Source of the DNA: Octopus sinensis
Lineage: Eukaryota
Length of the DNA stretch: 64,000 bases
Direction of reading: 5' to 3'
Assembly (NCBI RefSeq): GCF_006345805.1
Contig: NC_043009.1
Location: 37,262,001 to 37,326,000, forward strand
Shown: in pieces, positions 3,645 through 57,105 of the stretch
How the letters are laid out: each line of letters starts with the position of its first letter
Position numbering within the stretch: position 1 is the first letter of the stretch
The notes under the pieces: model-generated
Database searches by the model: none
Told to the model about the DNA's origin: nothing
The model's input: only the letters and a program-made list of their open reading frames with translations
Made by a program: the position numbers and the translations under genes

Positions 3645-4230
3645 AGGCGGCGAGCTGGTAGAATCAGCACATCGGGCAAAATGCTTAGTGGTATATTTCG
3701 TCTGCCGCTACGTTCTGAGTTCAAATTCCGCCGAGGTCGACTATGACTTTCATCCTTTCGGAGTCGATTAAGTAAGTACCAGTTACGCACTGGGGTCGAT
3801 ATAATCGGCTTAACCCGTTTGTCTGTCCTTGTTTGTCCTCTCTGTGTTTAGCCCCTTGTGGGTAGTAAAGAAATAGGTATTTCGTCTGCCGTTACGTTCT
3901 GAGTTCAAATTCCGCCGAGGTCGACTTTGCCTTTCATCCTTTCGAGGTCGATAAATTAAGTACCAGTTACGCATTGGGGTTGATATAATCGACTTAATCC
4001 GTCTGTCTGTCCTTGTTTGTCTCCTCTGTATTTAGCCCCTTGTGGGCAGTACAGAAATAGGTATTTCGTCCGTCTTTAACGCTCTGAGTTCAAATTCCGC
4101 CAAGGTCTACTTTCTCTTTCATCCTTTCGGAATTGATAAAATAAGTACCAGTTGAGCACTGAGATCGATGTAATCGACAAACCCCAATTCCCAAAATAGC
4201 TGACCTCGCGCCAAAATTTGAAACCAATAT
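3645..4230 (+). mobile_element. SINE family A (Nin/Deu-domain-like core), tandem of about 3 units
   Basis: Head ggcggcgagctgg..gagttcaaattcc and core gcctttcatcctttcggggtcgataaattaagtaccag, repeated head-to-tail. Confidence 0.88.
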
Positions 4231-4263
4231 TATTTATTATCATTAGTGTACAATATTGGCAGA

Positions 4264-4649
4264 GGGGGAGCACTCCGTCGGTTACGACGATGAGGGTCCC
4301 AGCTGATACGATCAACGGAACAGCTTGCTCGTGGAATTAACGTGCATGTGGCTGAGCACTCCACAGACACGTGTACCCTTAACGTAGTTCTCGAGGAGAT
4401 TCAGCGTGACACAGAGTGTGACAAGGCTGGCCCTTTGAAATACAGGTACAACAGAAACAGGAAGAAAGAGTGAGAGAAAGTTGTGGTGAAAGAGTACAGC
4501 AGGGTTCACCACCACCCCCTGCAGGAGCCTCGTGAAGCTTTAGGTGTTTTCGCTCAATAAACACTCACAATGCCCGGTCTGGGAATCGAAACCGCGATCC
4601 TACGACCGCGAGTCCACTGCCCTAACCACTGGGCCATTGCGCCTCCACT
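4264..4649 (-). mobile_element. tRNA-derived SINE family C
   Basis: tRNA-like head gtggaggcgcaatggcccagtggttagggcag. 12-bp TSD aatattggcaga at 4252-4263 and 4650-4661. Confidence 0.92.
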
Positions 4650-4917
4650 AATATTGGCAGAATCGGTTAAGTGGCGAGTAAATGGTAAACTATATGTAGT
4701 TACGTCTATTTACTTTCAAATTCCTCCGGGAGTTAGATCTGTATTTCCTATTTCTCAGTTTCAATGAATTAAAATAACAGTTAAGTACAGGAAAATAATT
4801 GAACTCGATTACTTATGATTGGGGTCTTAGCCCCTATGTGAAAAATCCTTGTCAACCTTTGTTACATTACAGAATACATAGTCTCTAAATTCGTTGCCAT
4901 TTATTTCTTGACAAAAT

Positions 4918-5322
4918 ATAGGCATAGGAGTGACTGTGTGGTAGTAATTTGCTAACGAACCACATGGTTCTGGGTTCAGTCCCACTGCGTGGCACCTTGG
5001 GCAAGTGTCTTTTACTATAGCCTCGGGCCGATCAAAGCTTTGTGAGTGGATTTGGTAAACGGAAACTGAAAGAAGCCCGTCATATATATGTATATGTATG
5101 TATGTGTGTGTGTATATGTTTGTGTGTCTGTGTATGTCCCCCCAACATCGCTTGACAACCGACGCTGTTGTGTTTACGTCCCCGGAATTTAGCAGTTCGG
5201 CAAAATAGAATAAGTACAAGGCTTACAAAGAATAAGTCCTGGGGTCGATATGCTCGCCTAAAGGCGGTGCTCCAGCATGGCCACAGTCAAATGACTGAAA
5301 CAAGTAACAGAGTAAAAGAGTA
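4918..5322 (+). mobile_element. SINE family B (tRNA-like head, CORE-like ccttgggcaag, internal microsatellite)
   Basis: Matches copies at 6064-6475, 50505-51080 and 58350-58722. 3' end ccagcatggccacagtcaaatgactgaaacaagt(aaaagagt)n. Confidence 0.88.
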
Positions 5323-5387
5323 ATGACAGTAAAAGGAATAAGCAAGAAAATAAGAAACATTTTGGGCGTAAGCGTGGTTGTGTGGCA

Positions 5388-5416
5388 TAGGGTTAGGATT
5401 AGGGTTAGGGCTAGGG
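5388..5416 (+). repeat. Short interstitial (TTAGGG)n-like tract
   Basis: tagggttaggattagggttagggctaggg. Confidence 0.65.
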
Positions 5417-5601
5417 TAGTAACCCGCCACTTACCTGATTCTGCCAATATTGTACACTAATGATAATAAATAATATTGGTTTCAAATTTTGGAGCAAGGT
5501 CAGCTGTTTTGGGAATTGGGGTTTATCGATTACATCGATCTCAGTGCTCAACTGGTACTTATTTTATCAACTCCGAAAGGATGAAAGAGAATGTCGACCT
5601 T

Positions 5602-5758
5602 GTGTAGTAAGAAGTTTGCTTCCTCACCACATAGTCTCGGTTTCAGTCCCACTGCATGGCACTGTGGAGCAAGTGTATTTTACTATAATCTCGGGCCGAC
5701 GAAAGCCTTGTGAATGTATTTAGTAGACGAAAAGAAGCTCAGCGTATGTGTGTATGTA

Positions 5759-6266: not shown

Positions 6267-6475
6267 TGTGTGTGTGTGTGTGTGTGTCTGTGTTTGTCCC
6301 CTAGCATTTCTTGACAACCAATGCTGGTGTGTTTATGTCCCCGTTACTTAGCGGTTCGGCAAAAAGAGACCGATAGAATAAGTACTGGGCTTACAAAAGA
6401 ATAAGTCCCGGGGTCGAGTTGCTCGATTAAAGGCGGTGCTCCAGCATGGCCGCAGTCAAATGACTCAAACAAAAA
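5602..6475 (+). mobile_element. Two SINE family B copies (diverged 5602-6040; well conserved 6064-6475)
   Basis: Same head, CORE-like motif and 3' tail as the other B copies. Confidence 0.85.
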
Positions 6476-7011
6476 AAAAAATAGTACTTACTTTGTGTTC
6501 TGAAGGATCCAAACACTGTAAGGCATTGCAAAAATCCGTTGCAATCAACCCCGCCGAACAGATACCCCAACGCATCGTTTCACGTTCTGAAATAGACTAA
6601 CGGAATAAACTTGTATTTGGTGGTCGCTGTATCTGTTACAAACAAGTAGGTCAGTTTACGTACACATACCTCTTTTATATAACCTTATATATGGACTTTT
6701 AAATTCTTATCTTTCAAGCTCATTTCCAAGTTATTTGTTTCTATCTAATCTCGATATCTAAACTCAATAGTTGTCGATAATATTCGAATTTTCTCTGATT
6801 ACTTTTTATTAAATCATTAATCTATAAAATTTACACGTGCGCGTGTATGCGTGATTGTGTGTGCGTGCAGGCGTGTGTGTGTGTGTGTGCTTCTATATTC
6901 CAATGACCTAGATACTGTCACATCTAACAGCACCCACATTAATCCTCATGACATTTGTCAATTCTCTCTAACTTTCCCTGACAATAAATCATCCACACAG
7001 CCTTAGAAACC

Positions 7012-7678
7012 TATTTCTTTACTACCCACAAGGGGCTAAACACAGAGAGGACGAACAAGGACAGACAAACGGATTAAGTCGATTATATCGACTCCAGTGC
7101 GTAACTGGTACTTATTCAATCAACCATGAAAGGATGAAAGGCAAAGTCGACATCAGTGGAATTTGAACTCAGAACGTAACGGCAGACGAAATACTGCTAA
7201 GCATTTCGTCCGGCGTGCTAACAACTCTGCCAGCTCGCTGCCTTACACAGCCTTAGATACCTATTTCTTTACTACCCACAAAGGGCTAAACACAGAGAGG
7301 ACAAACAAGGACAGACAAACGGATTAAGTCGATTATATCGACTCCAGTCCGTAACTGATACTTATTTAATCGACCCCGAAAGGATGAAAGGCAAAGTCGA
7401 CCTCGGCGGAATTTGAACTCAGAACGTAGCGGCAGAAGAAATACATATTTCTTTACTACCAACAAGGGGCTAAACACAGAGAGGACGAACAAGGACAGAC
7501 AAACGCATTAAGTCGATTATATCGACTCCAGTGCGTAACTGGTACTTATTTAATCGACCCCGAAAGGATGAAAGGCAAAGTCGACCTCGGTGGAATTTGA
7601 ACTCAGAACGTAACGGCAGACGAAATACCGCTAAGCATTTCGCCCGGCGTGCTAACAACTCTACCAGCTCGCTGCCTT
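7012..7678 (-). mobile_element. SINE family A tandem array
   Basis: Three units. The 17-bp flank acacagccttagawacc occurs three times (6995-7011, 7245-7261, 7679-7695). Confidence 0.9.
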
Positions 7679-8089
7679 ACACAGCCTTAGATACCATTCA
7701 CCAAACTGCGTTGATTTGATGAATGAAGACCGCGGGAGCACCTTCCTGTAAGGTTATGCCAACCTTGGTTCATTTAAAGCTATACTCAGATCAAAAAAAC
7801 ACCACCGCAACTCACCTCCCTAAGCACAAACGGCACTCAGCTCGAAATGCTGGGCTTCATTAGCTTCATACAATTAGATGTCTAAATGAATAAAACGAAA
7901 TCTTTCATCTTACATTCTTTTACCCTTTTTTTTTAAACTCTTTTACTTGTTTCAGTCATTTGACTGTGGCCATGCTGGAGCACCGCCTTTTGTCGAGCAA
8001 ATCGACCCCAGGACTTATTCTTTGTAAGCCTAGTATTTATTCTATCGGTCCCTTTTGCCGAACTGATAAATGATATAAACATGAACCTA

Positions 8090-9396: not shown

Positions 9397-10454
9397 TTGA
9401 TCACCGAGAGAAGCAAATACCTATTTTCCAATGTTTCTTTCTAAAGAAATTCAGTTTTGTCTGCAATTATATGATTGTAATTTTCTCTCGCAAATGATAC
9501 TCGATTGCTTTCCAGTCGGCTTTGTGAAGGGTAATTTCTGTGAATAGAAATTAAAGTAGTTGAGCTCTCAATAATCTTATTATAACTCGGTATGCCTTAC
9601 CTTACCAGGTGAACACACACACACACACACATGCAACTATATACATATATACAGGGAGAGAGAAAGAGAGAGAGAGACAGAGACAGACAGAGTGGGAGAG
9701 GTGTATAGCTGCCTTCGTTATTTTATAATTTTCACATTACCATTTTGCTGAATCAGTCATTAATCTGTATTAAATACTATATACTGACAGTCGGGGATTT
9801 ATCCAAACCATCAAGCGATAGAATAGTTACTACTGATGGGCTTTAATTTTAAGTGATACTAAAAAAATAGATGCAAGATATGTAGGGATATTGATCCATT
9901 TTTTAGGTAGAATGATATATATGTAGGATTCTAATACATTATGAGTAAAGTCCCACAGAGTTTAAAATGGGTCCTTCCAAATATAGAGTTTATACGCAAT
10001 GTAAGATTCCCTTATGAGTGAGAGCCAGCAGTTTTTAAACTTGATCATTCCAAGTACAGAATTTATACACAGTGTTGTAGAGTCAAAGATTTTTTACTTA
10101 AAGTGACCTAAAAATAGGGAGTGTATTAGTAGGGTCAAATCGAAAACAGGAAGAGAGGAATGAAGAAAGAGAAAAAAGAGAAGAGAAAAGTGAGAGAAGA
10201 AGGAGAAGAAAGTAAGAAGAAAAGTAATAAAATAATAACAAAATAATAGAAAATATAAAAAACCCTGAAGAGAGGGATAAAGGAAATAACGAAAAAAGAA
10301 AAAGAAAAATGAAGATATAGAACAGTCAGTGGTCAGTGAAGATAATTTGAAAGTAGGAGTGAGGAGATGAAGGGTGGAAGAGTGAGAAAGGTATTATAGT
10401 GTTAAAAAGATAGAAGGAATGGGTGGTGGTGGTAAAAGGTAAAGGAATGACAAA

Positions 10455-10920
10455 TGTGTAGTGATAGAGTCTAAGTGTATATTTCTTTATTATCCATATG
10501 GATTAACACAGATGAGGACAATACAATGTTTGGAGTCAACATGGAACTTTTTACAATGAAATCGGATATGAGTTATTTACAAAGGAATGAAATTACAATG
10601 AAAATTAAACAAGGACAAATAAACAAAGTAAACAATGAAGATAAAAGAACAGGATAGCAGACCCCACGGGCCCTGTTATTTTAGCTGCAACCTTTTGGTA
10701 GGTGATCGTGGCGTGTTCATGCAGGGCCTTTCACACCCAGCATCCGAGCGACACGCATCCATCTTTTTTTTAATACAGACTCTGTCAGACACCTTTTCTC
10801 TAGCTCCACCTTCCTCTTCAGATGGAATCTAAAGAAGTTCGTTAGGGCGGTGCCAGAGGTCATGGTGTCTGACAGTATACCTTTCATTCTGGTCTTCCAT
10901 ATAACCTCTTTCGCAACGGG
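10455..10920 (-). mobile_element. L1/Tx1-clade LINE 3' fragment
   Basis: VAKEVIWKTRMKGIL...FFRFHLKRKV...KKRWMRVAR, paralogous to the ORF at 11665-11955. Confidence 0.7.
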
Positions 10921-11429
10921 ACAGAGAGATGGGTTAGTAGTATGAAGAATTAAGGAATTTATGTTCAGCAGTTCAGTGCTTAGTAATATAAGAAAATATA
11001 TGTGAAGATGTATATACATGTATATATCAGACATGTTACACATACAATCCTTACTCGCATGCATATGCACACATACACACTCACGTATATGTGCATCTGC
11101 ATGTATCATTGTCCCTGTATACGCAGGCATATATACCTTGCATACATACGTATATTTACACATACCTACATATATACATATACGCATACACTCACTCATA
11201 CATATACACGCCCACATGGGTGTATGTGCATACATACAACTACAATCAGATGGTTGTACATGTGAGAAACTAGATAGGGATTAGAAGTTAGAATGTAGAT
11301 TTATAAGGTTATTGGGATTACCTAAGTGGTATTGTGGAAATGTACTGTATGGTCATTCTGGCATTTGGATTTGTGATAGAATTTGAATGTGTGATAAAAG
11401 CGGTGGTTGCATGTGCTTAGTGCCTCGTT

Positions 11430-12190
11430 ATGTTTTATCGCCGACCTGTTCCGAAGGACATTGGGGCCGGGGCCTTTGGATAATTTCCAAAAGTCTCTGG
11501 CTTGGCAATGTTACCGAGGAGCTTTACCAATTCGCGATAAACTCGCAAAGCATGGTGCTTCTTGCCTGCCCACGTACCCAAGGTGCGAGCAGAACGACGA
11601 AACCGTTCTGCACGCGATTGTACAGTGCTCGAGAATATCGGAAATGTGGGTTTAGGTCGAACAAATGCTGTCATGTCTTGGAAGAGTACAACTGTCCCCC
11701 GAGTCAATCATAAAGATTGTTCCACCTTCCTCCCTTAATCGAGAAGGAAAAGTCTGTTTTCTCGCTGTGGTTGCTATAGCAAAAGAGGTGGTGTGGAAGA
11801 TGCGAATGAAAGGAGTAGCGACATGCACCTTCATCTCCGGTCTCGCTCTAGTGAGCCTTTTTGTTTTCCATCTTAAAAGGAAAATAGACTGGAGAAGAGG
11901 TGTCTGTTACGTGATATATATGGGAAAAGATGGGAGGATATGGCGCGAGAGTTGAAAATGAGTGACTCCTTCTGATTCAAACCAATAGAAGTAGGGTAAG
12001 GCTTCAGTAGCGGACCGGGCTCCCACTCCATTGTATTGTCCCATTGTTTTGTGTTTCATCCATTTTATATCATAATTTTTTATAATATCGTCATTTTAAT
12101 GTAATAATCATTCGTGACACCAAAGTGTATTTTTATTGTCACCCCTCTGTGTTGGTTTCTGGTAAGCAATAAAGAAATCATTCATTTCCT
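11430..12190 (+). mobile_element. L1/Tx1-clade LINE 3' fragment (zf-RVT-like Cys/His domain)
   Basis: LDNFQKSLAWQCYRGALPIRDKL..PRCEQNDETVLHAIVQC, then IAKEVVWKMRMKG..FHLKRKI. Ends caataaagaaatcattc. Confidence 0.75.
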
Positions 12191-12203
12191 GAATGCAGGA
12201 AGT

Positions 12204-12810
12204 ATGCCAAACACACGAAATCAGAGGGAGCAAGCTATCGGACGTGTCCCTGCTGGTCAACGTCCATAGGCCATTGCTAGAGATTTGAACTGCAGTATTC
12301 GGACAACTGAATGGCTGAAAGAATGATACAATGTCACAAACAGCGCGGATGGTCGTTCATACAGTGGCCCACCAAGGGTTACAAAGGCACGTCAAGATCG
12401 TCACCTGTACCAACAAACAGCACTTGCAGGACCGATTCCAGATGGCAACGGAATCAGCTAGGCAGACCACAGGGACTCGCCACAGACCCATTTTTGCAGA
12501 GACCGTTCGCCGCCGGCTGAGATCTTTCAATCTGTCTTCGTGACTTCCGGCTAGGGGCCCCATCCTTACAGATCTTCATCGACGGGCACGTCTGCAGTAG
12601 GCTCAAAAACGTCAGAACTGGCAATATCAGCAGTGGAGGACTGTAATCTTCTATGACGAAAGTCAATATTGCATTTCTGTGGCAGATGACAGAGCTAGGG
12701 TTTGGAGAAGAAGAAATGAACGTCATGTCGATGGCTGTGTGGTGGAGAGAGATTTATGGGGGGGGGGGGGGCAAAGCATCATGGTATGGGGCGGGATTGC
12801 ACTCAACCAG
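12204..12810 (+). pseudogene. Tc1-family transposase relic
   Basis: HLQDRFQMATESARQTTG..ETVRRRLR..GPILTDLHRRARL..WRTVIFYDESQY..RVWRRRNERH..MVWGGI, with stops and frameshifts. Confidence 0.85.
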
Positions 12811-13639
12811 ACACATCTTATCTTTAATTAAAGACAAGTAATTGACGTATCTGTAATTTAATACTTGAATTAATTCTCTAGAATGCGTTATATACGCAAA
12901 TCAGTTTATTGGAATTATTTTAGCCCTTAGCAATTGCAAGTTAATAAGAATTTATAGAGGGAACTCGGTTGCTAATAAAACTTCTATAAAATTTCAAGAC
13001 AAGTTCTAATTTAGCTCAGGTGATATTTCTGTTTCTGTTAACGAAGATATTAATTATAAAGACAAGTTGTCTGCATCTGTCTATAATTTACATTGTTGGC
13101 TAAAATCCAATGACATATTTGCATATGCGCGCACGCACACACACTCACAAACACACAATGCCTATACACATACAGACACATGAATTAACAAGCCCCTTCA
13201 TAAAGCACAATGCATGAATATTTTATGAATATATTTAAATGTGAAACAAATGAAAACTACATAATGCTATACCTTCTATGACATATGTCAACAAGCCTTT
13301 CGAAGATAAGATCTTTAAGTGACGAATTTTAATCATTACAGGGTTCTAGTATATACTCTGTATACAGTATTGTCTAAAAGGAAGTGTGAGAGAAAGTGTA
13401 TATTATTAGTGTGAGTATGTTGTGTGCGTATGAGAGATAGGGAATGAATTAGTGTCAGGGAGAGAGACAGAGACAGACAGAGAGAGAAAGAGAAGAAAAG
13501 GGAGAGAAGTGGGCATCTCACCAATCCATTATAACTATCAGTCTTTCAGTATCTCTTTTCATGACTCCCTTCCATTTTATTCTAGCTGGACCTCGGCCCC
13601 AGGGTTTTTCTTCATGCATCATTCTAGGATGATGATCTT

Positions 13640-13930
13640 AAGGCGGTGAGCTGGCAGAAACGTTAGCGCGCCGGACGAAATGCTTAGCGGTATTTCGTCT
13701 GCCGCTGCGTTCTGAGTTCAAATTCCGCCGAGGTCGACTTTGCCTTTCATCCTTTCGGGATCGATAAATTAAGTACCAGTTACGCACTGGGGTTGATGTA
13801 ATCGACTTAATCCCTTTGTCTGTCCTTGTTTGTCCCCTCTATGATTAGCCCTTTGTGGGCAATAAAGAAACAAGAATCGTTAGTACGCCGGATAAAATGC
13901 TTAGCAGCATTTTTCTGGTTTTACGATTTG
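13640..13930 (+). mobile_element. SINE family A
   Basis: Full head and core, plus a partial second unit. Confidence 0.88.
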
Positions 13931-15265
13931 AATTAAATAGTTGTCTTAATAATAATGCACTGTTGTATCTATGAACCGTCATTATGCCCCTAATAAACAC
14001 ATGCATTTGTTCTATTTCAGTTCTTTATCAATTTTTATTTGTGAATTGGCTGACCTATTAAGAAGTTAACTAATCGATTGTTTGACTAATTGTTCGGTCA
14101 ATCACTTATTTCGCTAGGTTTATCACAGTTCTTTCGACATCCTTCGTGAATTCATCGATGACATGCCCTTTCTACTCCAGGTCTGTTTCATTAGCGATCT
14201 TTAGTCCCCTTACAAATGAAAAATTAAAAAGTATTCCTTGGCAGAGCAGTCTAGTAGTTTATGAACCTTCTCACCACAAGAAATACGTTATTCATAGTCC
14301 TTTCTATTAGCAGCAAGATAAAGAGAATCGTTAGAATTACGCTCTCCATGTTGCAAAGGCCTTGGAGTAGACCTGGTGTGTGTGGGGGGGAGCATGTTAT
14401 TGATGAAGTCGTAAATGGTGATGAAAGGACTTTGATAAACCTAGCCGAACTATTAATCAAATAATCGATTAGTTAATTGGCTAAATGGTAAATCAGTTGA
14501 CAAATGAAAAATAAGAAACTAAATAAAACTAACGCGTATATTTATTATTGATATAATTGTCCCATCCTCCACCGGATACAACAATATATGTTTCAACACC
14601 TGAATTTACATAAAAAAATCCTGGAAACCAGATACAAAAATAAAATAATAAAGTATATTTCTACAAACCTTTATGAATATATTTCACCATGTAGTAACTG
14701 ATTACATTCATAAATTTAAGACCCATTCTACACTATACGAAAACATATCGTTTTTGTAGGTTAATTCTTTGGTAAATCGTAAGCAACAATCATCAAAATC
14801 CATCACAGACTTTATTCAGGCTTTCTGGCTTTAAACCAAGATTGTTGTTTTTAAAAGATATCTGCCATTGAAAATTATGAAGAAAAAAAAGCATATAAAA
14901 TGCTTTTAATACAAGTTTATAAGAGAATACTATACTTCAACTGTACGTGAACTCAAGTCACATGATACAATATAGCATTATATTGAAATATAGCACAATA
15001 TAGAATTGTGACATTCTCAAATGTATTATAATCTCTCCAGTTCACAATAAATGACTTATTCCCCTGATGCGTTATCCGGGCTTTTACAACATGGTCATTG
15101 CAGTTGTCATGATACTCTTTATCTGGACGCTAATAGAAAGATGTATGAATGCTGCGGGGTTTTTTTTTTTATGAATTCTCAAATATTTTTCATTCATATG
15201 GGGACAAAATAACGCTACTGAAAGGTATGAAATCTATGCATTTTGCTGTGAATGGGATTGCTTAG

Positions 15266-15359
<94 letters not shown>

Positions 15360-16326
15360 GCATGTGTGTATGCTGAGTATCCCGTCGTTGCCGGGTAGTT
15401 TTCACAATAGAACAGTAAAACTGGAACAAAAGCCGTCAAACATTTTGTCCGGTGTGCTAAAGATTCAATTAGTTCACCTTGCAGTTGTTTCGCATTTTAC
15501 TCAATACAAAAATTCAGTTGTTATAGCTACAATAAATTATAAAACTGTTGACACTTTAATTGATTCAGAAAGTACAGAAAATTTTATTAGCAGCCCTACT
15601 AATATGAAATTTAATTATTTTATAATTATAATGTCCTTTTATAATTACAATTGCACAAAAGACAGTATTTAAAGGCAATATTTTTTAAGATGTAACTTTT
15701 AAAGAGAATGCTTGTTACTAGCAGCAATATATGTTAATATTATTCCACGGTTATTTTGAAAAAGCTATAAAATTGTTGGGTTTTATAGAGAACCATGACA
15801 CATAATTTCATTTGAAATATTTTTTACTGTAGCTGATGTAAAAATGCCAGAAATAATACTGGAGGTGCAGTCTTAAGAGAGAACATCTACGAAAACTGGA
15901 TTTTTTGTATTGTATTTATCATATGTTCTACCTTGCGATTTGTTATTCATTTCTTTGCATTTAAATATGAACGCACTCAAGAAAGAGCTATATACAAAAT
16001 CTTTCGTAAGAATATACTGATTGACTTCTCTTCATTTTCCCCTGGCGGGAATGTTAAGATAATGATGGAAAATGCGTTGAAAAAATAAGGCATAAAGCGA
16101 ATGCATCGAGCAGTCTAAAGTATGGAATGCAATCGAAGACATAATCTGTTACGACGTTGGTAACACGTCAATAGATTTAAATATATTGTACTAAATCTTT
16201 AATTTCAGAAGAAAGCGCAAACGACTGAACTTAGGTGCATATTCCAAGCCAAAAGAAAAGAAATGCAGTAGCTGCCTTTGTGAGCTGTGAATTGTAAAAC
16301 AATGAGTCATACATGCATGTGTGTGT

Positions 16327-16496
<170 letters not shown>

Positions 16497-17119
16497 AGAG
16501 TTTACGAAAAAATCAAAAGACAAAGACAGGTGGTGTACAAAACAAATTGATGTATTAGTATAACGCTCAGGAACAGAAAAAGTCTTTTACGGAAAAACAA
16601 AACCCGTCAAAGGACGGATTGACTCAGGAGAGCCAACGGCCATCCAGTTATGTAATCTGTGTGTGTGTGCGTGTGTGTGTGTGTGTGTTGTGTGTGTGTG
16701 TGTGTGTGTGTGCGTGTGTGTGCATATATGCTCGAAGACTGAGAAATTTCTGGTTTGTATCCAGGCTTGCATATGGCTTACCAAGGTAGGTTCGAGTCTG
16801 AGCCTATACCAAGGCAACTAACCCAGAAAATAGAGAACAGAAAAGCCTGAGGTATGTCGTTCATTTAGTTTATGGTAAACATCTGTTCCAATTTTCTGCT
16901 ATCAGCCATCAGGTGGATTCAGCATAGGAACAAACACGTTTTGATGGAAGGTTTCAATGTTGGAATGAGTGCTGACCATCAGGTATTGTCTAACATTTTC
17001 GGTCGACATGGAATGGGGTGAATGAACTCAAATGGTTACGTCATTTTGCAGCGAATTTGATCTAAGAGCAAATAATTAGCACATGATTAATTATATAATC
17101 ACAAAGTTATTTTATATGT

Positions 17120-18135
17120 ATATGTATAAAACTCAACTTGTGTGTCTGTGTGTGTATCTGTGTGTGTGTCTGTGTGTTTAACTTCCCGGCACATCTCTTC
17201 CTAGCCAACAAATCGTAGAACCACCAAAAATGAGTCACTTAAAGTTTAGGCGAATGAAAATTGAACTGCGCTATTTCTGTTCCGAAATTCATCTCGCAAG
17301 TGCAAAAATCGATAATGTGTTTGTTTAGGCCTTATCCCATGCATTGAATAGTGAACTTTACTCAGTCAGCTGTTTGACGTGAACTGTGTTCACCACGTGT
17401 GCAAGCATGCGTAAATTGCATGAAAAATAAAAGATCCAGATATAAAAACGAATCGCCGTAAACATTGTAGAAATTCGGCAAAGGAATGAATTTTCGGGAT
17501 GTAGCCTGGAGGGTTTTTTCGTATTAATCGTTTGGACTTTGTGAACACATACCAATTGCTTTCATAACATTTTTAACGCTTTGAATTAAACGTGACCATT
17601 TTGCGTTGAGTCTGCAGTTTGAATCACTTTAACCAAATTTTAGCAAGCCGGATTTTAGATCATCACGATACATCGCCAGCGACTCCCTGAATCTCTCCCC
17701 TGAAATCCCTGTTGAGAAATCTATATATATAAAACTCAACTTGTGTGTCTGTGTGTGTGTCTGTGTGTTTAACTTTTGGATCTACCAAGTTTCATTATTA
17801 AGGATGGAAAGTAGTGTGTAGAAAATCTATATATATAAAGCTGAAGTTGTCTGTGTGTGGCAGGTTTGGTAGCCTTCAACTCACACTATCTCCTTCGAGA
17901 CCCTGCAGCGCAAGTTGTCCAAAATTGAGAGTATGATAGAAGAAGGCTTGCTCTTCATTCTGTAGAAGATAAAAATTCAAATCGGACCATGTTAACACCA
18001 AAAATTATTTACATCAAAAAGGTACTTTTTTTCTATGAAAATCCCTATTTTTTACGATTTTTGACTGCTGTGTCACCATTATTCGGTGTATTTCAACTGG
18101 AAAAATGTTCACATGAAGACAATAACAAGTTGCAT
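17120..18135 (+). mobile_element. Cluster of Helitron-like 5' ends
   Basis: TCTATATATATAAA-xx-aa[cg]ttgt starts at about 17720 and 17825, with a duplicate of the 17720 start at about 17120. They resemble the 5' end of the complete Helitron at 54909. Confidence 0.5.
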
Positions 18136-18177
18136 AATATATATATATATGTATGTATTCTGTTCTTTAAGACGATT

Positions 18178-18560
18178 TAGATGACCGAATTCATTGACAT
18201 TATGGTTTGATAACAAATTAAATGCCATTCATTACGATTCAATGTAACTTGTTCAAATGTTTCTGCAGGATTCTTTGTCACTTTCCGGTTAGCTTTGAGC
18301 TTATCTTTGTGTCTGACCCATGGTTTTCTTATACTTCTCCTTCTACTATAGTCTATTGGATTTCTGATGTCACTCATTCTAATGCTGGTGGTGAGACCGA
18401 CAGCTTTACTTGTAGTAAAGAAGCGATTAACATATGTCATCATGGAGAATTCTCTCCAGGGTCTATTTTCTGTAATGAGATGTATTCACACGTCCGAGTG
18501 TGTGCCAGTGTGTTATATTTGACTCCACACAATTATATCATATTCAACACTGCGTCGTGT
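18178..18560 (-). mobile_element. RTE-clade LINE 3' relic
   Basis: RRSIRKPWVRHKDKLKANRK..PAETFEQVTLNRNEWH resembles the RTE C-terminal GRPKLRYKDTLK..WE..A.DR..WR. Confidence 0.55.
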
Positions 18561-18688
18561 GACTTTGTACCCATACACAGGCTTACAAAAACACAGGCAC
18601 ACACACATGTATATGTCTGTATATATATATATAATTATACATACATACAAACATAGATATATACATTAATATATATATATATATATAT

Positions 18689-18897
18689 ATACTATTGAAC
18701 CTTCGGAAGGGCATTATGCCGGTAATAATAAGCACAAGTACTGGTAATTAACCCATTAGCTAACAATAACAATAAAGGATCGAACCAGTGCGTGTGTTTA
18801 TTATTACTGGCATAATGCCCCTCACAAGGTTCAATAGTATTCCTTCAATACACGAATTCACGTCAAGAATGTTGCAATCCAGATACAAATACGAACT
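18689..18897. repeat. Foldback hairpin (18689-18840) plus conserved tail shared with 44280-44335
   Basis: Arms atactattgaacct..gggcattatgccggtaataataagcac and gtgtttattattactggcataatgccc..aggttcaatagtat. Confidence 0.8.
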
Positions 18898-18900
18898 ACA

Positions 18901-18938
<38 letters not shown>

Positions 18939-19519
18939 TTTATGTGTGCGTGCAAGCGTGTTGTGAGTATGTGTGTATGTGTGTGTGTGTGTGTGTGCAT
19001 GTACAATGCTGTTAATTTAAATTATTTCCCAGTCAATTATCTTGGAATAATACAGATATTGCGTGTCTATAACAGGTCATAATAGACCATGTCATCGATA
19101 GAGGCAAATATTACATATTACAGAGATCGTAGCAGAATATTATAGATATCAGATATCCGCGTACAGCTATTGCTTCTCCTCACAAAAGTGTACTATTAAA
19201 TATAATGGTATTTTTCTGCTTGTTGTCTCTTTACAAACGTGATATATGAAATACAACTGTACTTCAGCAACACTTTCATTTTGTGGTTTTGTTATTATGT
19301 TTATATGTCTTTTCAGAGTTTTAAGAGTTTTGATCAAAGTATTAATGCTATTACCGCTTCCTAGGTAGTTTAATTCTAATAAAGGTAATTATTTTCTTTT
19401 GGCGGGAAGGCATCTAATTGTTTGTTGAAAGTGGGTATGATAGAGACCAATATTCCTCCTTTGCGTATTCAGTCTTTTAGCTGTGTAAAATTCAAATAAA
19501 GAACGGTTATTTTATTCTA

Positions 19520-19870
19520 TACTTGTTTCAGTCATTTGACTGCGGCCACTTTGAAGAATTTTAGTAGAAAAAATCTACCCAGGACTTACTTTTTAAAGCC
19601 TATTACTTATGTTATAGGTCATATTTTCTGAATCGCTAGGTTACAGAAAGTAAATTCACCTGTGGTCAAGCGGTAGTGGTGTACAAATACACACACACAC
19701 ACATAAATACGAAGGGTTTCTTTCAGTTTCCGTCTACTGAATCCACTCACAAAGCTTTGGTCGGCCCGAGGCTATAGTAGAAGTCATTCGGTCAATGTAC
19801 CACGCAGTGGGACCGAACCCGGGACCATGTGATTAGGAAGCAAGGTTCTTACCACACAGTCCCATCTGCG
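19520..19870 (-). mobile_element. SINE family B, diverged
   Basis: Reverse complement of the B head and tail. Confidence 0.8.
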
Positions 19871-20219
19871 TGTATGTTGTAGAATATTCAGAAATTTCTA
19901 ACCAACTTCTACCTTTAATTTCCACTTCAGTAAAAAAAAAGAGAAAACCATCGTGATTGTTTTAGCGGGTTGGATTTAAAACTACCAAGCTCTACTCATT
20001 GATTGCCGTCCTTCTGTGAAATTTAAACACATTAGAAACTCACATCAGTTTTGTAGAATGTCATGTGGATGGAAGTATGCAAAAGTTGTAGTTCAAAGAA
20101 TAATTGAAAGCACAGTTATACAATCGCCTAAATACAATATTTGCCTATATTTATGATTATGTATCGAGAGTGAAGGATGGCAAGGTGGCAGGACCGGACA
20201 AAACGCTTAACGCTCACCG

Positions 20220-21175
20220 AAGGCGGTGAGCTGGCAGAAACGTTAGCACGCCGGGCAAAATGCTTTGTAGTATTTCGTCCACTGCTACGTTCTGAGTTCA
20301 AATTCCGCCGAGGTCGACTTTGCCTTTCATCCTTTCGGGGTCGATTAAATAAGTACCAGTCACGCACTGGAGTCGATATAATAGACTTAATCTGTTTATC
20401 TGTCCTTGTTTGTCCTCTCTGTGTGGGTAATAAAGAAATAGGTATTTCGTCCGTCTTTATGTTCTGAGTTCAAACTCTGTTGATGCCGGCGGTTTTGCCG
20501 TTCATCCTTTCGAAATCGATGAAATAAATACCAGTTACGCGCTGAGGGCAATGTTATTGACTAGCCACATTTCAAGCTTGGGGCTTACAGTTGAAAGGAT
20601 CTTATATTGAGCATTATATGTTGAGCGAAAGTAGGCGAGCTGGAAAGGTCGTTAGCGCGTCAGACAAAACCCTGAACGGTATTTCTGTCGACTTTGCCTT
20701 TCATCCTTTCGGGGTCGATAAATTAAGTACCAGTTACGCACTGGGGTCGATGTAATCGACTTAATACTTATGTCTGTCCTTGTTTGTCCCCTCTGTGTTT
20801 AGCCCCTTGTGGGTAATAAAGAAATAGGTATTTCTTTAGGCGCTTTATGTTCTGAGTTCAAGTTACGTCTTGGTTGGTTTTGCTTTTCATCCTTTGAGGA
20901 TCGCTAAAATAAGTACCAGTCAAAGATTGGGAGCAATGTAAATTTAAACAGCAATAGTAATAACGGTTTCAAATTTTGGCACAAGGCCAGCAATTACGGG
21001 TAAATGCTAAGTCGATTACATCGACCCCAGTGCTCGACTGGTAGTTATTTCATCGCCCTCGAAAGCATGAAAGGCAAAGTCGACCTCAGCGGAATTTGAA
21101 CCCAGAATGTAAAGACGGACGAAATTCTGCTAATCATTTTGCTCGGCGTGCTAACTATTCTGCCAATTCACCACC
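20220..21175. mobile_element. Cluster of SINE family A copies (plus 20220-20930, minus 20965-21175)
   Basis: Multiple A cores of different divergence. Confidence 0.85.
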
Positions 21176-28046: not shown

Positions 28047-28392
28047 GGTAGTAGTTAAGAAGAGTGGTCCCGGTGCACGCACTCACGTACTCGCGCATCC
28101 GCGCTAGCTAGTCGTGACTGGTCGATCCTACAACGACTACTTGGCAAAGTAAATATAACACAAAAACATTTTTTTTACACAAAGCAAATAATTTTTTTAA
28201 ACAAAGTAAATAAAACATTTTTGTGTTTTATTTACTTTGTTTTAAAAAAATAAATAAAAAGTAAATCATTTTCTAAACAAAGTAAATAAAACAAAAAAAA
28301 CACAAAGTAAGGATCGACTAGTCACGACTAGCTAGCGCGGATGCGCGAGTACGTGAGTGCGCGCACCGGGACCACTCTTCTTAAATAGTACC
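28047..28392. mobile_element. MITE with ~85-bp TIRs and 9-bp TSD (Mutator-like)
   Basis: TIRs ggtagtagttaagaagagtggtcccggtgc...gtcgatcct and reverse complement. TSD tagattttc at 28038-28046 and 28393-28401. Confidence 0.85.
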
Positions 28393-42116: not shown

Positions 42117-42940
42117 TTTCCTCACGAGAGTTCCGGACCCCAGTAATGAACTCATTTGCATACAGCCAATCAGAGCTCACCTTCACCTTGTTGTCAAGTT
42201 AACAAACACACTCTACCAAGTAAGCTCAAGACGAAGAACGGTGTTGTAAGTCGACCGATCGCCAAGTTATGCCTGATTTTAGTAATTAGATAGATTTGCA
42301 TCTATACTTATTATCGGATTTTGTTAGGGCCCCATATGGTAAAGATGTGGATGGGAGAAATGTGGGAGAGGGTGATGTGCTAGCAACCCTCTCCCCTTAC
42401 TTTTTTTTACAAAGTAAAGAACAACACAAATAATTACGCAGAGACAGCCATGGTTGAAACAAGAACAAGAACAACAAGCATTTTTAAAAGTGAAAAGAAG
42501 CATGGTCATTCCTTAACCAAGTGACCTTATCGTATCGCTTGACTGGGTGCAAATGATCAAACTTTAAACCTCTATAACTTTTTTAAAACATTTTTCTGGA
42601 AAAAATGAAATAACTCCAGCAATTCAGTTTGGGCAAATGTATTATTGTGCCAACGTCGGAGTAACCAGTGAACATCGAAGGATCAACACCAAGAAAGAAT
42701 AAATATTATTTACATATATTTATTCCTTTTTGCCTGACAGGTAGTTAGAGACAGTAGTACTTGTAGTGATAGCGAAATGTTTTTGGATAGTGACAAAAAG
42801 GTTGCTGTCTGCCAGTAGAGGGAAAAAGAGTAAGGAATGCATGGTGCTAACTGGAAAGGAAGAAAGGATAAAGGTGGCTCTGCTCTGATTGGCTGTATGC
42901 AAATGAGTTCATTACTGGGATCCGGAACTCTCGTAGGAAA
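42117..42940. mobile_element. Putative TIR element with octamer+CCAAT-containing inverted ends
   Basis: 42117-42183 and 42871-42940 are reverse complements: acgagagttccgga.cccagtaatgaactcATTTGCATacagCCAATcagagc. Confidence 0.65.
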
Positions 42941-52593: not shown

Positions 52594-53045
52594 TTTACAC
52601 CTCATTCAACTGCACACCTCACTCTATCATTACGCTCACACTTCTGCGCATTCAAGCTTATCTCACCACATTCTACGAGCATTAAAATCTAAAATTTATT
52701 TCGGCCGACTTAAACCACCCATTTTATGGAATGAGACGATAGGGCGCTGCTGTTTGGACGCTGGTGATTTGGCACGGCAGAATGGACATTCAAGCTCTTT
52801 TAGTGACAGTACAATTTGGCCCTGAAGGTAAACGCGCACACACACACACAAACACATACGCATTAAATATACATTTACAAATAGAGAGAGTGAGAGAGAC
52901 GTTACATATACATACAAGTATAACAAGATGTTCACATATAAACAGAGAGAGAGAAAGAGGTGGAAGAGAGCGATGGAAACATGAAAATGGAAGAAACAGT
53001 AACATGTCTGATGTTAAATAAGTCAACGTCGAATTAGCGAAGCTT

Positions 53046-53801
53046 AAAAGGCGGCGCCAAAACGTTTCAACCCTACCCCCATTTTAATTACTTTGTTAAA
53101 AACACCAAATGAACAACCACTCGTCATGACATATCAGTCATCAATCATCAATCATACCCCTAGATAATATGTCCAGTAAATGAAGCAAAATAATAGAAAT
53201 ATCAGCGGAAATATAATTCTGGAGTATTTGTCCACTTTTCTTGCATGCTCCTTGCCGTTAGGATCAATTTGGTAAGATATGATAGCAGAGTCAGTCTGCG
53301 AGTATCCATTTGACTGCAAAAAAAGAAAAGAGAAGAAAAGAGAAAAAAGAAAAGTCCAAGTCCTGATCCCTAGAGATCTCATAGAAGGTAAAATAAGGAA
53401 ATAAATCTCAAGGTTCTACGTTAATGTATGGAAAGATCATAGCGAACAAAACATGACATTAGTGCTAAACAAGAATAACAACGTTAACGATGCCAAAATC
53501 TTCTAATTTTCCGATACATTAACTCAAATGTACATTTTATTTCAATATTCATGACTATGCTACCATTCGATCGGTGTGATTTTTCGATCGATTATCAGTC
53601 ATCGGGTGTCTTATTCCGAGCTTAGTGAATGAGAACATTATTATCCATAGTTTAGAAATAATGGTTTTTCATTCATGTTAATATTCAGTCTGAGACCATG
53701 TAACTTATACACAACCAGGAATAAGATACCCGCTGACGATCGCAGGTATATATAAAGTAATTAAAATGGGGTGGAGTTGAAACGTTTTGGCGCCGCCTTT
53801 T
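53046..53801. repeat. ~49-bp inverted repeat (53046-53094 / 53754-53801) bracketing the terminal exon, with inner hairpin 53598-53736
   Basis: aaaaggcggcgccaaaacgtttcaac..ccccattttaattacttt and its reverse complement. Confidence 0.92.
53152..53313 (-). CDS. Cys-loop ligand-gated anion channel subunit, terminal exon with M4 and stop codon
   Basis: Long pyrimidine tract plus tgcag acceptor, phase 0 matching the previous donor. Encodes SNGYSQTDSAIISYQIDPNGKEHARKVDKYSRIIFPLIFLLFCFIYWTYYLGV*, matching the GlyR-type M4 pattern AKKIDKISR..FP..F..FN.FYW. Confidence 0.93.
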   Translation of the reverse strand, partial: SNGYSQTDSAIISYQIDPNGKEHARKVDKYSRIIFPLIFLLFCFIYWTYYLGV

Positions 53802-53971
53802 TAGTTGCCTGACACTCTTTAGTAATTCATTTTGATTATTCAATTTTAATCGATGATATATACCTTTTCTTGATAGGCCGTTCTATATATTTGCCGCGAT
53901 ACACCTCAACTCGTAATCGGACCACGGTAGTGAACTCCCGAAATGGCCATAATTCTTGTGGTAATTCTTGT

Positions 53972-54908: not shown

Positions 54909-55298
54909 TCTTTATATATAAAAGTCAAGTTGTGTGTCTGTCTCCTACGATTTAGATTCCTAACTACTCCCACATTTTGCGGTGCAGTTTAACAAAACCG
55001 GGTATCTTATAGTCGTGATTCAGATCGAGCCCTTCTGGGTATTAGCGCGTCTACGATGAGTCTACGATTTTTTAAAAAATTACCATCATTTTTTTCCATT
55101 TTAATGCATTTTTTCGATATTATATAAGGGAAGTAACTCTCTAAAAATGTCTACGATGATCAACGATTTTTTAAAAAAATTTACCATCATTTTTTTCCAT
55201 TTTAATGCATTTTTTGCTATTTTTTTGGCTATAACTCTCTAAAAATGCTTATATAGTTATTTCCCTTACAAACCCGAGCAACGCGGGGATACTGCTAG
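54909..55298 (+). mobile_element. Non-autonomous Helitron in the last intron of the channel gene
   Basis: a|TC start, subterminal hairpin cccgagcaacgcggg, CTAG|t end, no TSD. Internal ~95-bp tandem duplication. Confidence 0.85.
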
Positions 55299-55332
<34 letters not shown>

Positions 55333-56664
55333 ATATATATATATGGGAATGTTACAAATAAAGAATGGAGTTGCTGGTATTACATTTATTCTATGGTTAA
55401 CAAACATTTCAATAATGTGTGAGTGGCAAATCAAATAACATACATGAACCCAAGGATGATAACAATGATCATCAAATCGATTATATAATGCATATTACAT
55501 AACGATCAACCCACAGCCATTTAGTCATAATCTTGCGAATAAGTAAATTACAGTTGCAAATTAGATGATTTTATATATACAGAAACCTTACAGTATTTCA
55601 GTGGGAATTTACTTGATTTCAGAAGGCGAAGTTAATGTTAGAAGTTAGCCAAAGCATTACACTAGACATCTACAGCATTAGATAACACAACACGATACTG
55701 GATTACACCGTGAGAAATTGAGAATTAATGAATAGTGTGGTACATTACAGTTTTGATTGAATAAACGAATGAATAAAGCACCACCGCACATCCAAACGGA
55801 TACAATGAAATTCACTATGAATGGCTTGTTCGTAAATGTACGACGAAAGTCGTTGGCATTCAGTGATACGTACCGCTGTAAGGACAGTTGATGTTATAAT
55901 TCCTTGAGTTATCTAAATCTCAACTTTGTTCTGACTGAGTCTATTTATAATATCTAGATGATGTTTCGAACAGTTTGGTCTTTAAGGGCCAGTCATTAGG
56001 TATCTTAGTTTATTGGATAAGAACATTATTATCTTTAGTTTACAAATAATCGTTCCTGATTTCACTTAGAAATGACGATGGGACAAAGTTTAACTTTCTC
56101 TTTCACTCCTCATCTTCATCGTCATAAACCGCTGGACTTTTACTGTTTCGAGTCGTAGGACTTATAATGCTCATTTTCTGTGTTTCCGTGACGAGTAAGT
56201 GACCGAGATTACAACGTTCTCCTTGAATGAGATGCCAGTCCGTCACAAGGTTTTTTCATTTGTAGTTCAGTAGACTGGAGCAACGTTATACGAAGTGTTT
56301 AACTCAAGAATACAACGTACCGCCAGGTCAGGGGATCGAAACCGTGATCTTGCGCTCGTGAGAGTAACACCCTAAACACTAGGCCACATGCCTTCACTAT
56401 TCATCCCTCTAGGATCAGCAAAATAACTAACGATGGGTTACTGTGGTCGAACTACTTTGTCTCCCATTCTTCTTTCTCTTTCTGATGAGCTGTATAGCAC
56501 CTGAGCACTATATACAATTAGTTTATTATTATTCTTTTTATAATCAAAATACTTTTACGACAGTGTTAGAACTTCTTATACGTATTACTCTATGAACAAA
56601 AACTGAACATATGTGTTTTGAATACTATCATAACATGGCACCAACAATTTACTTTTATACTTAC

Positions 56665-57050
56665 AAAAACAGCTAGCGAAACTTTCTCGGGGTCCATCTG
56701 CAAGGGACGGTTTCTTAAATACCGTTTTATCTCTCTGCGATTCAAAACATTGACCACAGCATATTCTAGAAGTGCGAGAAAGACGAATATGAGACAGATA
56801 GCCATCCAGATATCTATAGCTTTGATGTAAGAAACTTTGGGAAGAGCGGAGACGGCTGCAGCCGTTTGACTGGTCATCGTTAACACTGTGAGAACACCCA
56901 ATGATGTGCGGGCTGGGACAGCGTCTATGTTTAGCCAAAATGAAAACCATGATACCAAGACGGTCAATGAACATGGACAGTATATGTTGAGAATGTAGAA
57001 ACCCATATTTCTCTTCAAATGAAATTCAGCTCTTAGACAGGAGAATGTTT
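56665..57050 (-). CDS. Cys-loop ligand-gated anion channel subunit, exon encoding beta10 and M1-M3
   Basis: Acceptor attatttcag|, donor TTT|gtaagt. Encodes ETFSCLRAEFHLKRNMGFYILNIYCPCSLTVLVSWFSFWLNIDAVPARTSLGVLTVLTMTSQ...LPKVSYIKAIDIWMAICLIFVFLALLEYAVVN, closely matching GlyR alpha M1-M3 with the anion-selective PAR motif. Confidence 0.96.
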
Positions 57051-57105
57051 CTGAAATAATAAAATTACAGGGTTTTAGAAACGGTTTAATTTAACACACA
57101 CACAA

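What the first reader, a model, noticed from the sequence alone, without database searches (positions are those of the whole stretch)
53046..53801. Inverted repeat brackets the M4 exon of the chloride-channel gene: possible RNA-structure switch or exon captured inside a TIR element
Seen: a near-perfect ~49-bp GC-containing inverted repeat has one arm in the last intron (53754-53801) and the other 58 nt past the stop codon (53046-53094), so the whole terminal exon and its acceptor sit in the loop. The 3'UTR arm contains an ATTAAA on the mRNA strand (53083-53088). A nested imperfect hairpin (gtcatcgggtgtcttattcc/ggaataagatacccgctgac; tgaatgagaacattatt/aataatggttttcattca) lies at 53598-53736. An 11-bp direct repeat tatcagtcatc (53132-53142, 53593-53603) flanks the exon-bearing segment. 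Inference: pairing in pre-mRNA could loop out the M4 exon, mask a poly(A) signal or create an ADAR substrate (A-to-I editing is extensive in coleoids). Alternatively, these are the TIRs of a MITE that came to enclose the exon.
Basis: partly seen in the sequence, partly recalled or inferred. Interest (0 to 1): 0.72.

Follow-up and report, generated by a model that had tools for sequence, protein, structure and literature searches.

The report
Backwards transposon-end copy beside channel exon
The inverted repeat around the last exon of an octopus chloride-channel gene is a 52-base backwards copy of an old transposon's end plus its flanking DNA, likely pasted into the neighbouring intron by a DNA-repair slip; the RNA is predicted to pair there, but the assembled transcripts examined keep the exon, so it is likely an ordinary by-product.

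Summary
The inverted repeat is real (48 of 52 columns, 53043-53094 vs 53754-53804) and is present in four independent DNA assemblies. It is not a transposon's pair of ends. The 3'UTR arm is the last 35 nt of an old 351-bp TIR element (52727-53077, perfect 9-bp target-site duplication), plus that duplication and 8 nt of single-copy flank. The intron arm repeats this junction, including private mutations found in none of 24 other copies, so it is a local inverted copy, most likely a microhomology-primed templated insertion. The nested hairpin is a remnant of a second, palindromic repeat; the 11-bp direct repeat is chance-level (99 of 1000 shuffles). A probable-RNA contig splices M3 to M4 and reads through the arm and its ATTAAA; no editing-type change inside the arm shows in the three runs covering it (contigs miss rare edits). 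The intron arm carries four variants, two pair-breaking, none compensatory. Comparable inverted repeats occur about once per 22 kb here. The scan reported two similar scars elsewhere in this genome. Verdict: ordinary repair scar; a small chance remains of a newborn poly(A)-masking or ADAR duplex.

The parts
52718..52726 (+). Left copy of the 9-bp target-site duplication (CCCATTTTA) of the family-1 element
   Evidence: identical to 53078-53086
52727..53077 (.). Family-1 non-autonomous TIR element (MITE), 351 bp, short imperfect TIRs, internal CA/GA microsatellites; lies in the 3'UTR
   Evidence: 24 other dispersed copies fetched; 5 of 21 with both ends found have a 9-bp TSD at 7/9 or better, null mean 0.04; loose ends of many contigs at 52728-52730
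53043..53094 (+). UTR arm = source: last 35 nt of the MITE + right TSD + 8 nt single-copy flank
   Evidence: inner 19-mer is at background frequency in the genome (6 hits vs 9 control)
53078..53086 (+). Right copy of the 9-bp TSD
53083..53088 (-). ATTAAA hexamer inside the UTR arm; read through by probable-RNA contigs
52695..52700 (-). AATAAA hexamer beyond the MITE; one contig (X10) stops 16 nt past it, a weak hint of a poly(A) site; X12 and X15 cover further
53152..53313 (-). Coding part of the terminal exon (M4) of a GlyR-like Cys-loop anion-channel subunit
   Evidence: spliced to 56665 in X12 contig 18
53314..56664 (-). Last intron (GT at 56664, AG at 53314)
   Evidence: sequence; joint 56665-53313
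53593..53740 (.). Internally deleted remnant of a second, palindromic repeat family = the nested hairpin
   Evidence: second copy at window 55990-56054; DNA-contig depth rises 4-12-fold over 53594-53687
53754..53804 (-). Intron arm = inverted copy of 53043-53094
   Evidence: (17/17 match to TSD+flank, other copies 7-11/17)
53798..53893 (+). Piece of a third, long-inverted-repeat family, truncated exactly where the intron arm begins; shares 7 nt with the arm's outer end
53891..53951 (+). Second piece of family 3, out of its usual order, joined with a 3-nt overlap
56665..57052 (-). Exon encoding M1-M3 of the channel

Best explanation
The intron arm is a 52-bp backwards copy of the junction between an old MITE and its flank in the 3'UTR, likely made by one replication or repair template switch about 660 bp away, and it likely has no selected function. 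Shown: the source junction (element end, TSD, single-copy flank), the identity of the copy, its presence in four other assemblies, and inclusion of M4 with read-through of the UTR arm. Inferred: polymerase left the intron at 53753, copied the opposite strand from 53094 to 53043, and rejoined in a family-3 repeat through a short T-run overlap (7 nt shared); the out-of-order family-3 piece next to it may record a further switch. Inferred: the event is much younger than the MITE. Predicted: while the last intron is still attached the two arms pair, which could draw incidental ADAR editing, but once the intron is spliced the duplex is gone.
For: Element with its own two ends and 9/9 TSD at 52727-53077. 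Intron arm matches TSD+flank 17/17, 24 other copies 7-11/17; the private end GCGCCAAAACGTTTCAAC occurs exactly only in the two arms; alignment. Family-3 copy is cut off at the arm in the window while most of the 29 aligned loci (28 distinct) continue and its two pieces are out of order. Both arms in the same arrangement in 4 of 4 DNA runs. Four variant sites in the 51-nt intron arm: two break a pair, one weakens to G-U, one restores identity, none compensated. X12 contig joins 56665 to 53313 and runs to 52895. Orthologues P0002 and P0004 end in the same M4 exon; no second M4-like exon in 164 kb. 12 comparable inverted repeats in 264 kb, 6 in this window.
Against: The pre-copy allele was not seen, so the mechanism rests on junction anatomy; no microhomology is evident at the inner junction. 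660 bp is longer than the within-100-bp templates of the MMB-TI search (PMC8421209). No variant is listed in the UTR arm (fully accounted for only in X8; 60 rows hidden), against about 2 expected from its neighbourhood. The predicted duplex is very stable, buries the ATTAAA (unpaired probability 0.0) and leaves a UAG adenosine at 53074 opposite an unpaired C. RNA evidence is contigs of runs only guessed to be RNA.
Confidence: 0.77

Rival explanations
1. Same local origin, but by correction of a pre-existing imperfect inverted repeat: the family-3 segment that normally precedes 53798 resembled the UTR junction by chance and was overwritten with it (quasi-palindrome correction or gene conversion), not inserted fresh.
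For: The arm sits where that segment is missing and matches it at 19-21 of about 31 positions in individual copies; mean local score 19.3 over 28 copies vs 14.1 +/- 1.5 for shuffles (2 of 500 reach it).
Against: 32 of 500 real 44-mers from the window score as well; spacing to the following family-3 piece is about 14 nt instead of about 30.
Confidence: 0.1
2. The copy, however it arose, has been co-opted: the intron-UTR duplex hides the proximal ATTAAA until the last intron is spliced and so favours a longer 3'UTR, or serves as an ADAR substrate that tunes the mRNA.
For: Predicted duplex -76 kcal/mol, ATTAAA fully paired, A at 53074 in UAG facing a C; contigs read through the ATTAAA; present in 4 of 4 assemblies, no listed variant in the UTR arm. 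3'UTR and intron repeats are frequent editing targets in squid (PMC9068888, passages).
Against: No T>C inside 53043-53094 in X10, X12, X15; the one T>C nearby (53110) is in the DNA of 4 of 4 runs. Pair-breaking variants segregate in the intron arm. Read-through of a non-canonical hexamer needs no masking.
Confidence: 0.08
3. The arms are the TIRs of one element that encloses or captured the M4 exon (Pack-TIR/Pack-MULE-like).
For: The outer 19 nt of the arms belong to a TIR family.
Against: Both arms are the same end of the element, pointing outward into host flank; the real partner TIR is at 52727; no TSD flanks the arm pair; the exon is the only copy, in its native place and orientation.
Confidence: 0.02
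4. Two independent insertions of the same MITE in opposite orientation.
For: The family has at least 24 other copies.
Against: The intron arm includes the UTR copy's TSD, flank and private mutations, and has no element body behind it.
Confidence: 0.02
5. Assembly artefact.
For: None.
Against: Single contigs in X3 and X6 span both arms; X4 and X8 cover both in two contigs; the arms differ from each other and vary between runs.
Confidence: 0.01

Closest known systems
Microhomology-mediated templated insertions (MMB-TI, MMBIR-like; PMC8421209, passages) and short-range template switches of the four-point model (PMC7954356, passages)
   Same: Short insertion that is an inverted copy of a nearby template, creates a near-perfect inverted repeat, short overlap at a junction, possibly multi-template, inherited in the germ line
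   Different: Template 660 bp away rather than within about 100 bp; ancestral allele not seen; microhomology clear at one junction only
Single-copy Pack-TIRs made by transposition-independent gap filling (PMC8277862, passages)
   Same: Local (under 5 kb) copying into a break in or at an inverted-repeat element, with short microhomology
   Different: The filler is a transposon end plus flank, not a gene fragment; it lies between remnants of two different repeat families, not inside one TIR element; the exon is not captured
Mutator-like (MULE) non-autonomous elements (PMC6446971, passages: TSD 8-11 bp, TIR 14-500 bp)
   Same: Family 1 has short TIRs and a 9-bp TSD
   Different: No transposase partner was sought or found, and other superfamilies have 8-9 bp TSDs, so the superfamily call is provisional
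Conserved long-range pre-mRNA pairings (PCCRs; PMC8052449, passages) and ADAR exon-complementary sequences
   Same: Predicted stable duplex between an intron and a downstream region that holds a poly(A)-type hexamer
   Different: No deep conservation shown, no compensatory change, no editing or isoform seen; repeat-derived and young

Membership tests
Templated inverted insertion (MMB-TI / template switch) | Inverted copy of a nearby, locus-specific template | tested here: met
   TSD+flank 17/17; private end only in the two arms
Templated inverted insertion (MMB-TI / template switch) | Microhomology at the junctions | tested here: inconclusive
   7-nt overlap with family 3 at the outer junction; none evident at the inner junction; needs the ancestral allele
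Templated inverted insertion (MMB-TI / template switch) | Absent from an ancestral allele or outgroup | not testable with these tools
   All 4 DNA runs laid carry it; the run search finds only near-identical DNA
   660 bp between arms; hence filed as working like a templated insertion, not as a strict MMB-TI call
MITE, MULE-type (family 1, 52727-53077) | Short, non-coding, dispersed multi-copy element with TIRs | tested here: met
   24 other copies; end motifs found in 21
MITE, MULE-type (family 1, 52727-53077) | 8-11 bp TSD | tested here: met
   9/9 in the window; 5 of 21 others at 7/9 or better, 0 of 1873 permutations reach the observed mean
MITE, MULE-type (family 1, 52727-53077) | Autonomous partner with MULE DDE transposase and the same TIRs | not tested
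   No search made
Pack-TIR / Pack-MULE | Captured sequence between the left and right TIR of one element, TSD outside | tested here: not met
   Same end twice, facing outward; TSD lies inside the arms
Pack-TIR / Pack-MULE | Parental copy of the captured sequence elsewhere | tested here: not met
   M4 exon found once in 164 kb, in its native place; not searched genome-wide
Functional long-range pre-mRNA structure / ADAR duplex | Stable predicted pairing | tested here: met
Functional long-range pre-mRNA structure / ADAR duplex | Conservation with compensatory substitutions | tested here: not met
   0 compensatory among 4 variant sites, close relatives only
Functional long-range pre-mRNA structure / ADAR duplex | Editing, skipping or 3'-end change in RNA | tested here: inconclusive
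   None in contigs of 4 probable-RNA runs (3 cover the UTR arm, none the intron arm); contigs drop rare variants

The most novel reading that the evidence does not exclude
A repair accident created, in one step, a 50-bp intron-to-3'UTR duplex that buries the proximal poly(A) hexamer of a neuronal chloride-channel mRNA until the last intron is removed and presents a UAG adenosine at an A-C mismatch to ADAR: a newborn RNA switch coupling last-intron splicing, 3'-end choice and editing, caught a few million years after birth with natural pair-breaking alleles available as controls.
Probability: 0.08. Interest if true: 0.62.

Novelty: new member of a known kind. Interest (0 to 1): 0.16.

Why it matters
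As it stands it is one more example that short inverted repeats in octopus genes arise from local templated copying and transposon remnants, and a caution against reading such repeats as RNA switches. It is unusually easy to polarise, because the copy includes a transposon's target-site duplication and flank. If such scars seed new double-stranded RNA in coleoid pre-mRNAs, they would be raw material for new ADAR sites; this locus has segregating pair-breaking alleles that would allow a direct test.

Tried and rejected
DNA search of the genome with the UTR arm found only the two arms, but the tool skips common words; pattern search then showed the family (50 hits vs 0 control, of which 21 are one tandem array on C21). 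No RNA holder on record was listed; the runs used are guessed to be RNA. No RNA contig covers 53672-54466, including the intron arm: no evidence either way. The tool listed no joint for the M3-M4 splice in its joint table; the splice is read from the two adjacent pieces of X12 contig 18. T53110C looked like A-to-I but is genomic in 4 of 4 DNA runs. The 11-bp direct repeat is chance-level and is not a TSD: one copy is in an ATCA-rich run, the other is the end of the family-2 remnant. Family 3 as a retroposon with an A-tail at 53798 was rejected: other copies continue past that point and several are long palindromes. Rfam gave only sub-threshold matches on microsatellites outside the feature. 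Earlier-findings look-up for relatives returned nothing. Literature searches (listings only) showed no paper on this locus or repeat family. The z-score of -6.7 shows the pairing is not compositional, but shuffles are not the right null in a repeat-rich genome.

Full report
Observation. The repeat is as described: 53043-53094 and 53754-53804 align in inverted orientation over 52 columns with 48 matches (E 5e-15 within the window), 660 bp apart. On the minus strand a polypyrimidine tract and AG precede a 53-codon exon at 53313-53152 that matches the end of Pfam PF02932. The exon upstream (57052-56665) encodes M1-M3; its best solved relatives are glycine receptor alpha subunits, and its closest named relative is an Argonauta 'glycine receptor subunit alpha-3-like' protein, 98% identical over the query (P0002). 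tblastn with P0002 maps seven exons between 53155 and about 84,100 in window numbering extended by the adjoining stretches. The ligand of this channel was not determined.

What the UTR arm is. A 19-nt pattern from the arm with one mismatch has 50 genome hits against 0 for the reversed control; 2 are the arms, 21 are one tandem array on C21, and 27 are dispersed, of which 24 were fetched. Their similarity to the window runs outward from the arm (about 53006-53064, 73-88%) and stops there. These copies define an element of about 300-500 bp with short imperfect TIRs and internal microsatellites. The window's copy is 52727-53077, flanked by CCCATTTTA on both sides. Among the 24 other copies, both end motifs were placed in 21 (automatically; several left ends are probably misplaced), and 5 of 21 show a 9-bp duplication at 7/9 or better, against 0.04 expected; none of 1873 permutations reached the observed mean. 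TIRs with an 8-11 bp TSD fit Mutator-like elements (PMC6446971, passages); no transposase was sought, so the superfamily is provisional. The UTR arm is therefore 35 nt of element end, 9 nt of TSD and 8 nt of host flank.

What the intron arm is. It repeats all three parts. It matches TSD plus flank at 17 of 17, where the 24 other copies reach 7-11. The flank 19-mer is at background frequency in the genome (6 hits, two of them the arms, vs 9 control), and the altered element end, which lacks one 14-nt unit present in most copies, occurs exactly only in the two arms (alignment). There is no element body behind the intron arm. A transposase cuts at the element end and does not carry the outside flank, so this is neither a second insertion nor a TIR pair (inference from established cut-and-paste chemistry). 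The direction is fixed by the left TSD: the UTR copy is the original.

Where it landed. The arm lies between remnants of two other repeats. Family 3 starts at 53798 (43 matches from 40 scored of 139 candidates); most other copies continue to the left where the window has the arm, several are long palindromes, and the window's two pieces (53798-53893, 53891-53951) are out of the usual order and overlap by 3 nt. The arm's outer 7 nt are shared with family 3. This is the anatomy of a templated insertion with one or more template switches: inverted copies of nearby templates with junction microhomology, sometimes from several templates, occur as germline variants in humans (PMC8421209, passages), and short-range switches generate inverted repeats (PMC7954356, passages). 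Gap filling from templates within 5 kb at TIR elements is described for animal Pack-TIRs (PMC8277862, passages). A variant reading, overwriting of a chance look-alike in family 3, has marginal support (2 of 500 shuffles but 32 of 500 real window 44-mers reach the score).

Other individuals. Of 24 runs listed, 4 DNA or probable-DNA runs from four studies and three organism labels were laid. All carry both arms in the same arrangement; single contigs span both in X3 and X6. In the intron arm, four sites vary: on the mRNA strand 53762 turns A-U into G-U (X4), 53769 and 53797 break G-C pairs (X3; X6 and X8), and 53775 turns U-G into C-G (X3, X6, X8), which shows that the window's letter is the derived one. 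No compensating change is listed in the UTR arm; no variant at all is listed there, which is fully accounted for in X8, probably in X6, and not in X3 and X4 because 60 rows were hidden. About 2 would be expected from the 9 variant sites in the surrounding 233 nt, so this is not significant. Apart from 53775 and one terminal mismatch, the arms differ at two positions in about 49 (4%), against 15 in 1077 (1.4%) between the window and X6 and 12-27% between MITE copies: the copy is much younger than the MITE and probably only a few times older than the split among these animals (inference, wide error; conversion between arms could also keep them alike).

RNA. Folding of minus-strand 53000-53850 pairs the arms (z -6.7 against 20 shuffles); most pairs have probability near 1, the duplex alone is -76 kcal/mol, and the ATTAAA is fully paired, while the acceptor lies about 440 nt from the intron arm inside the loop. 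Four probable-RNA runs from three studies were laid as contigs. X12 contig 18 joins 56665 to 53313 and continues through the stop, the ATTAAA and the arm to 52895; further contigs reach 52575 and beyond. X10 has a contig over 52679-53152 and X15 contigs over 52873-53313; X11 does not cover the UTR. No T>C appears within 53043-53094, including 53074, the predicted best ADAR site (the UAG and A-C preferences are recalled knowledge). T53110C is genomic. A terminal exon has no downstream donor, no other M4-like exon exists in 164 kb, and both orthologues end with this M4, so looping it out has no productive outcome. Contigs cannot show rare edits or 3' ends, so incidental editing of the pre-mRNA remains open; in squid, ubiquitous edits lie mostly in 3'UTRs and introns over repeats (PMC9068888, passages). 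Functional long-range pairings are recognised by conservation and compensatory change (PMC8052449, passages), which this pair lacks in the narrow sample available.

Background. Inverted repeats of at least 40 bp and 88% identity with 100-2000 bp spacers number 12 in 264 kb (window plus 20 stretches of 10 kb, ten adjoining and ten from other contigs), 6 of them in this window. One bracketing a short exon is therefore not surprising.

Earlier notes. My reading was recorded before any note was seen. One search then returned two unreviewed notes on other DNA of this genome that describe the same kind of inverted repair scar; I did not test them and they are not support, but they lower the novelty. 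Searches of the paper library (listings only) showed nothing on this locus; no supplements were read, and repeat libraries in supplements of octopus genome papers may already name families 1-3.

Verdict. Real feature, ordinary cause: a young, local, inverted templated copy of a MITE-flank junction, probably neutral (0.77; 0.87 with the overwriting variant). Co-option as an RNA switch is not excluded (0.08). Interest 0.16.

Noticed in passing
window 42124-42176 and 42882-42934: A 53-bp, 98% inverted repeat 706 bp apart, looking like the TIRs of an intact 810-bp non-autonomous element; similar in size to the finding.
   Followed up: partly
window 4101-5602, 6348-8069, 20687-21084, 28047-28392: Four further inverted repeats of 77-163 bp at 88-96%.
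   Followed up: no
G000:C21:25649220-25649588 (L035-L038): A tandem array of a 14-nt unit that matches the subterminal repeat of the family-1 TIR: a minisatellite apparently grown from a transposon end motif.
   Followed up: no
window 54927-55260: An intronic repeat with very high depth in all four probable-RNA runs (about 10,000-20,000 against 5-10 for the gene); a highly transcribed, high-copy element. It also matches the flank of L051.
   Followed up: no
window 53083-53088: The ATTAAA overlaps the MITE's target site, so it predates the insertion; the MITE landed 5 nt downstream of it on the mRNA strand and may have displaced an older cleavage site (speculation).
   Followed up: no
window 53099-53122: A cluster of 7 variant sites in 24 nt of 3'UTR just inside the UTR arm, four of them together in X6, X8 and one X10 contig; could be another small template-switch event.
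   Followed up: no
window 53354-53566: Unspliced last-intron sequence is present at low depth in X10 and X11: pre-mRNA or DNA carry-over.
   Followed up: partly
L006 and L007 (C3 and C1): The two loci read identically around the family-2 match: a recent duplication or an assembly duplicate.
   Followed up: no
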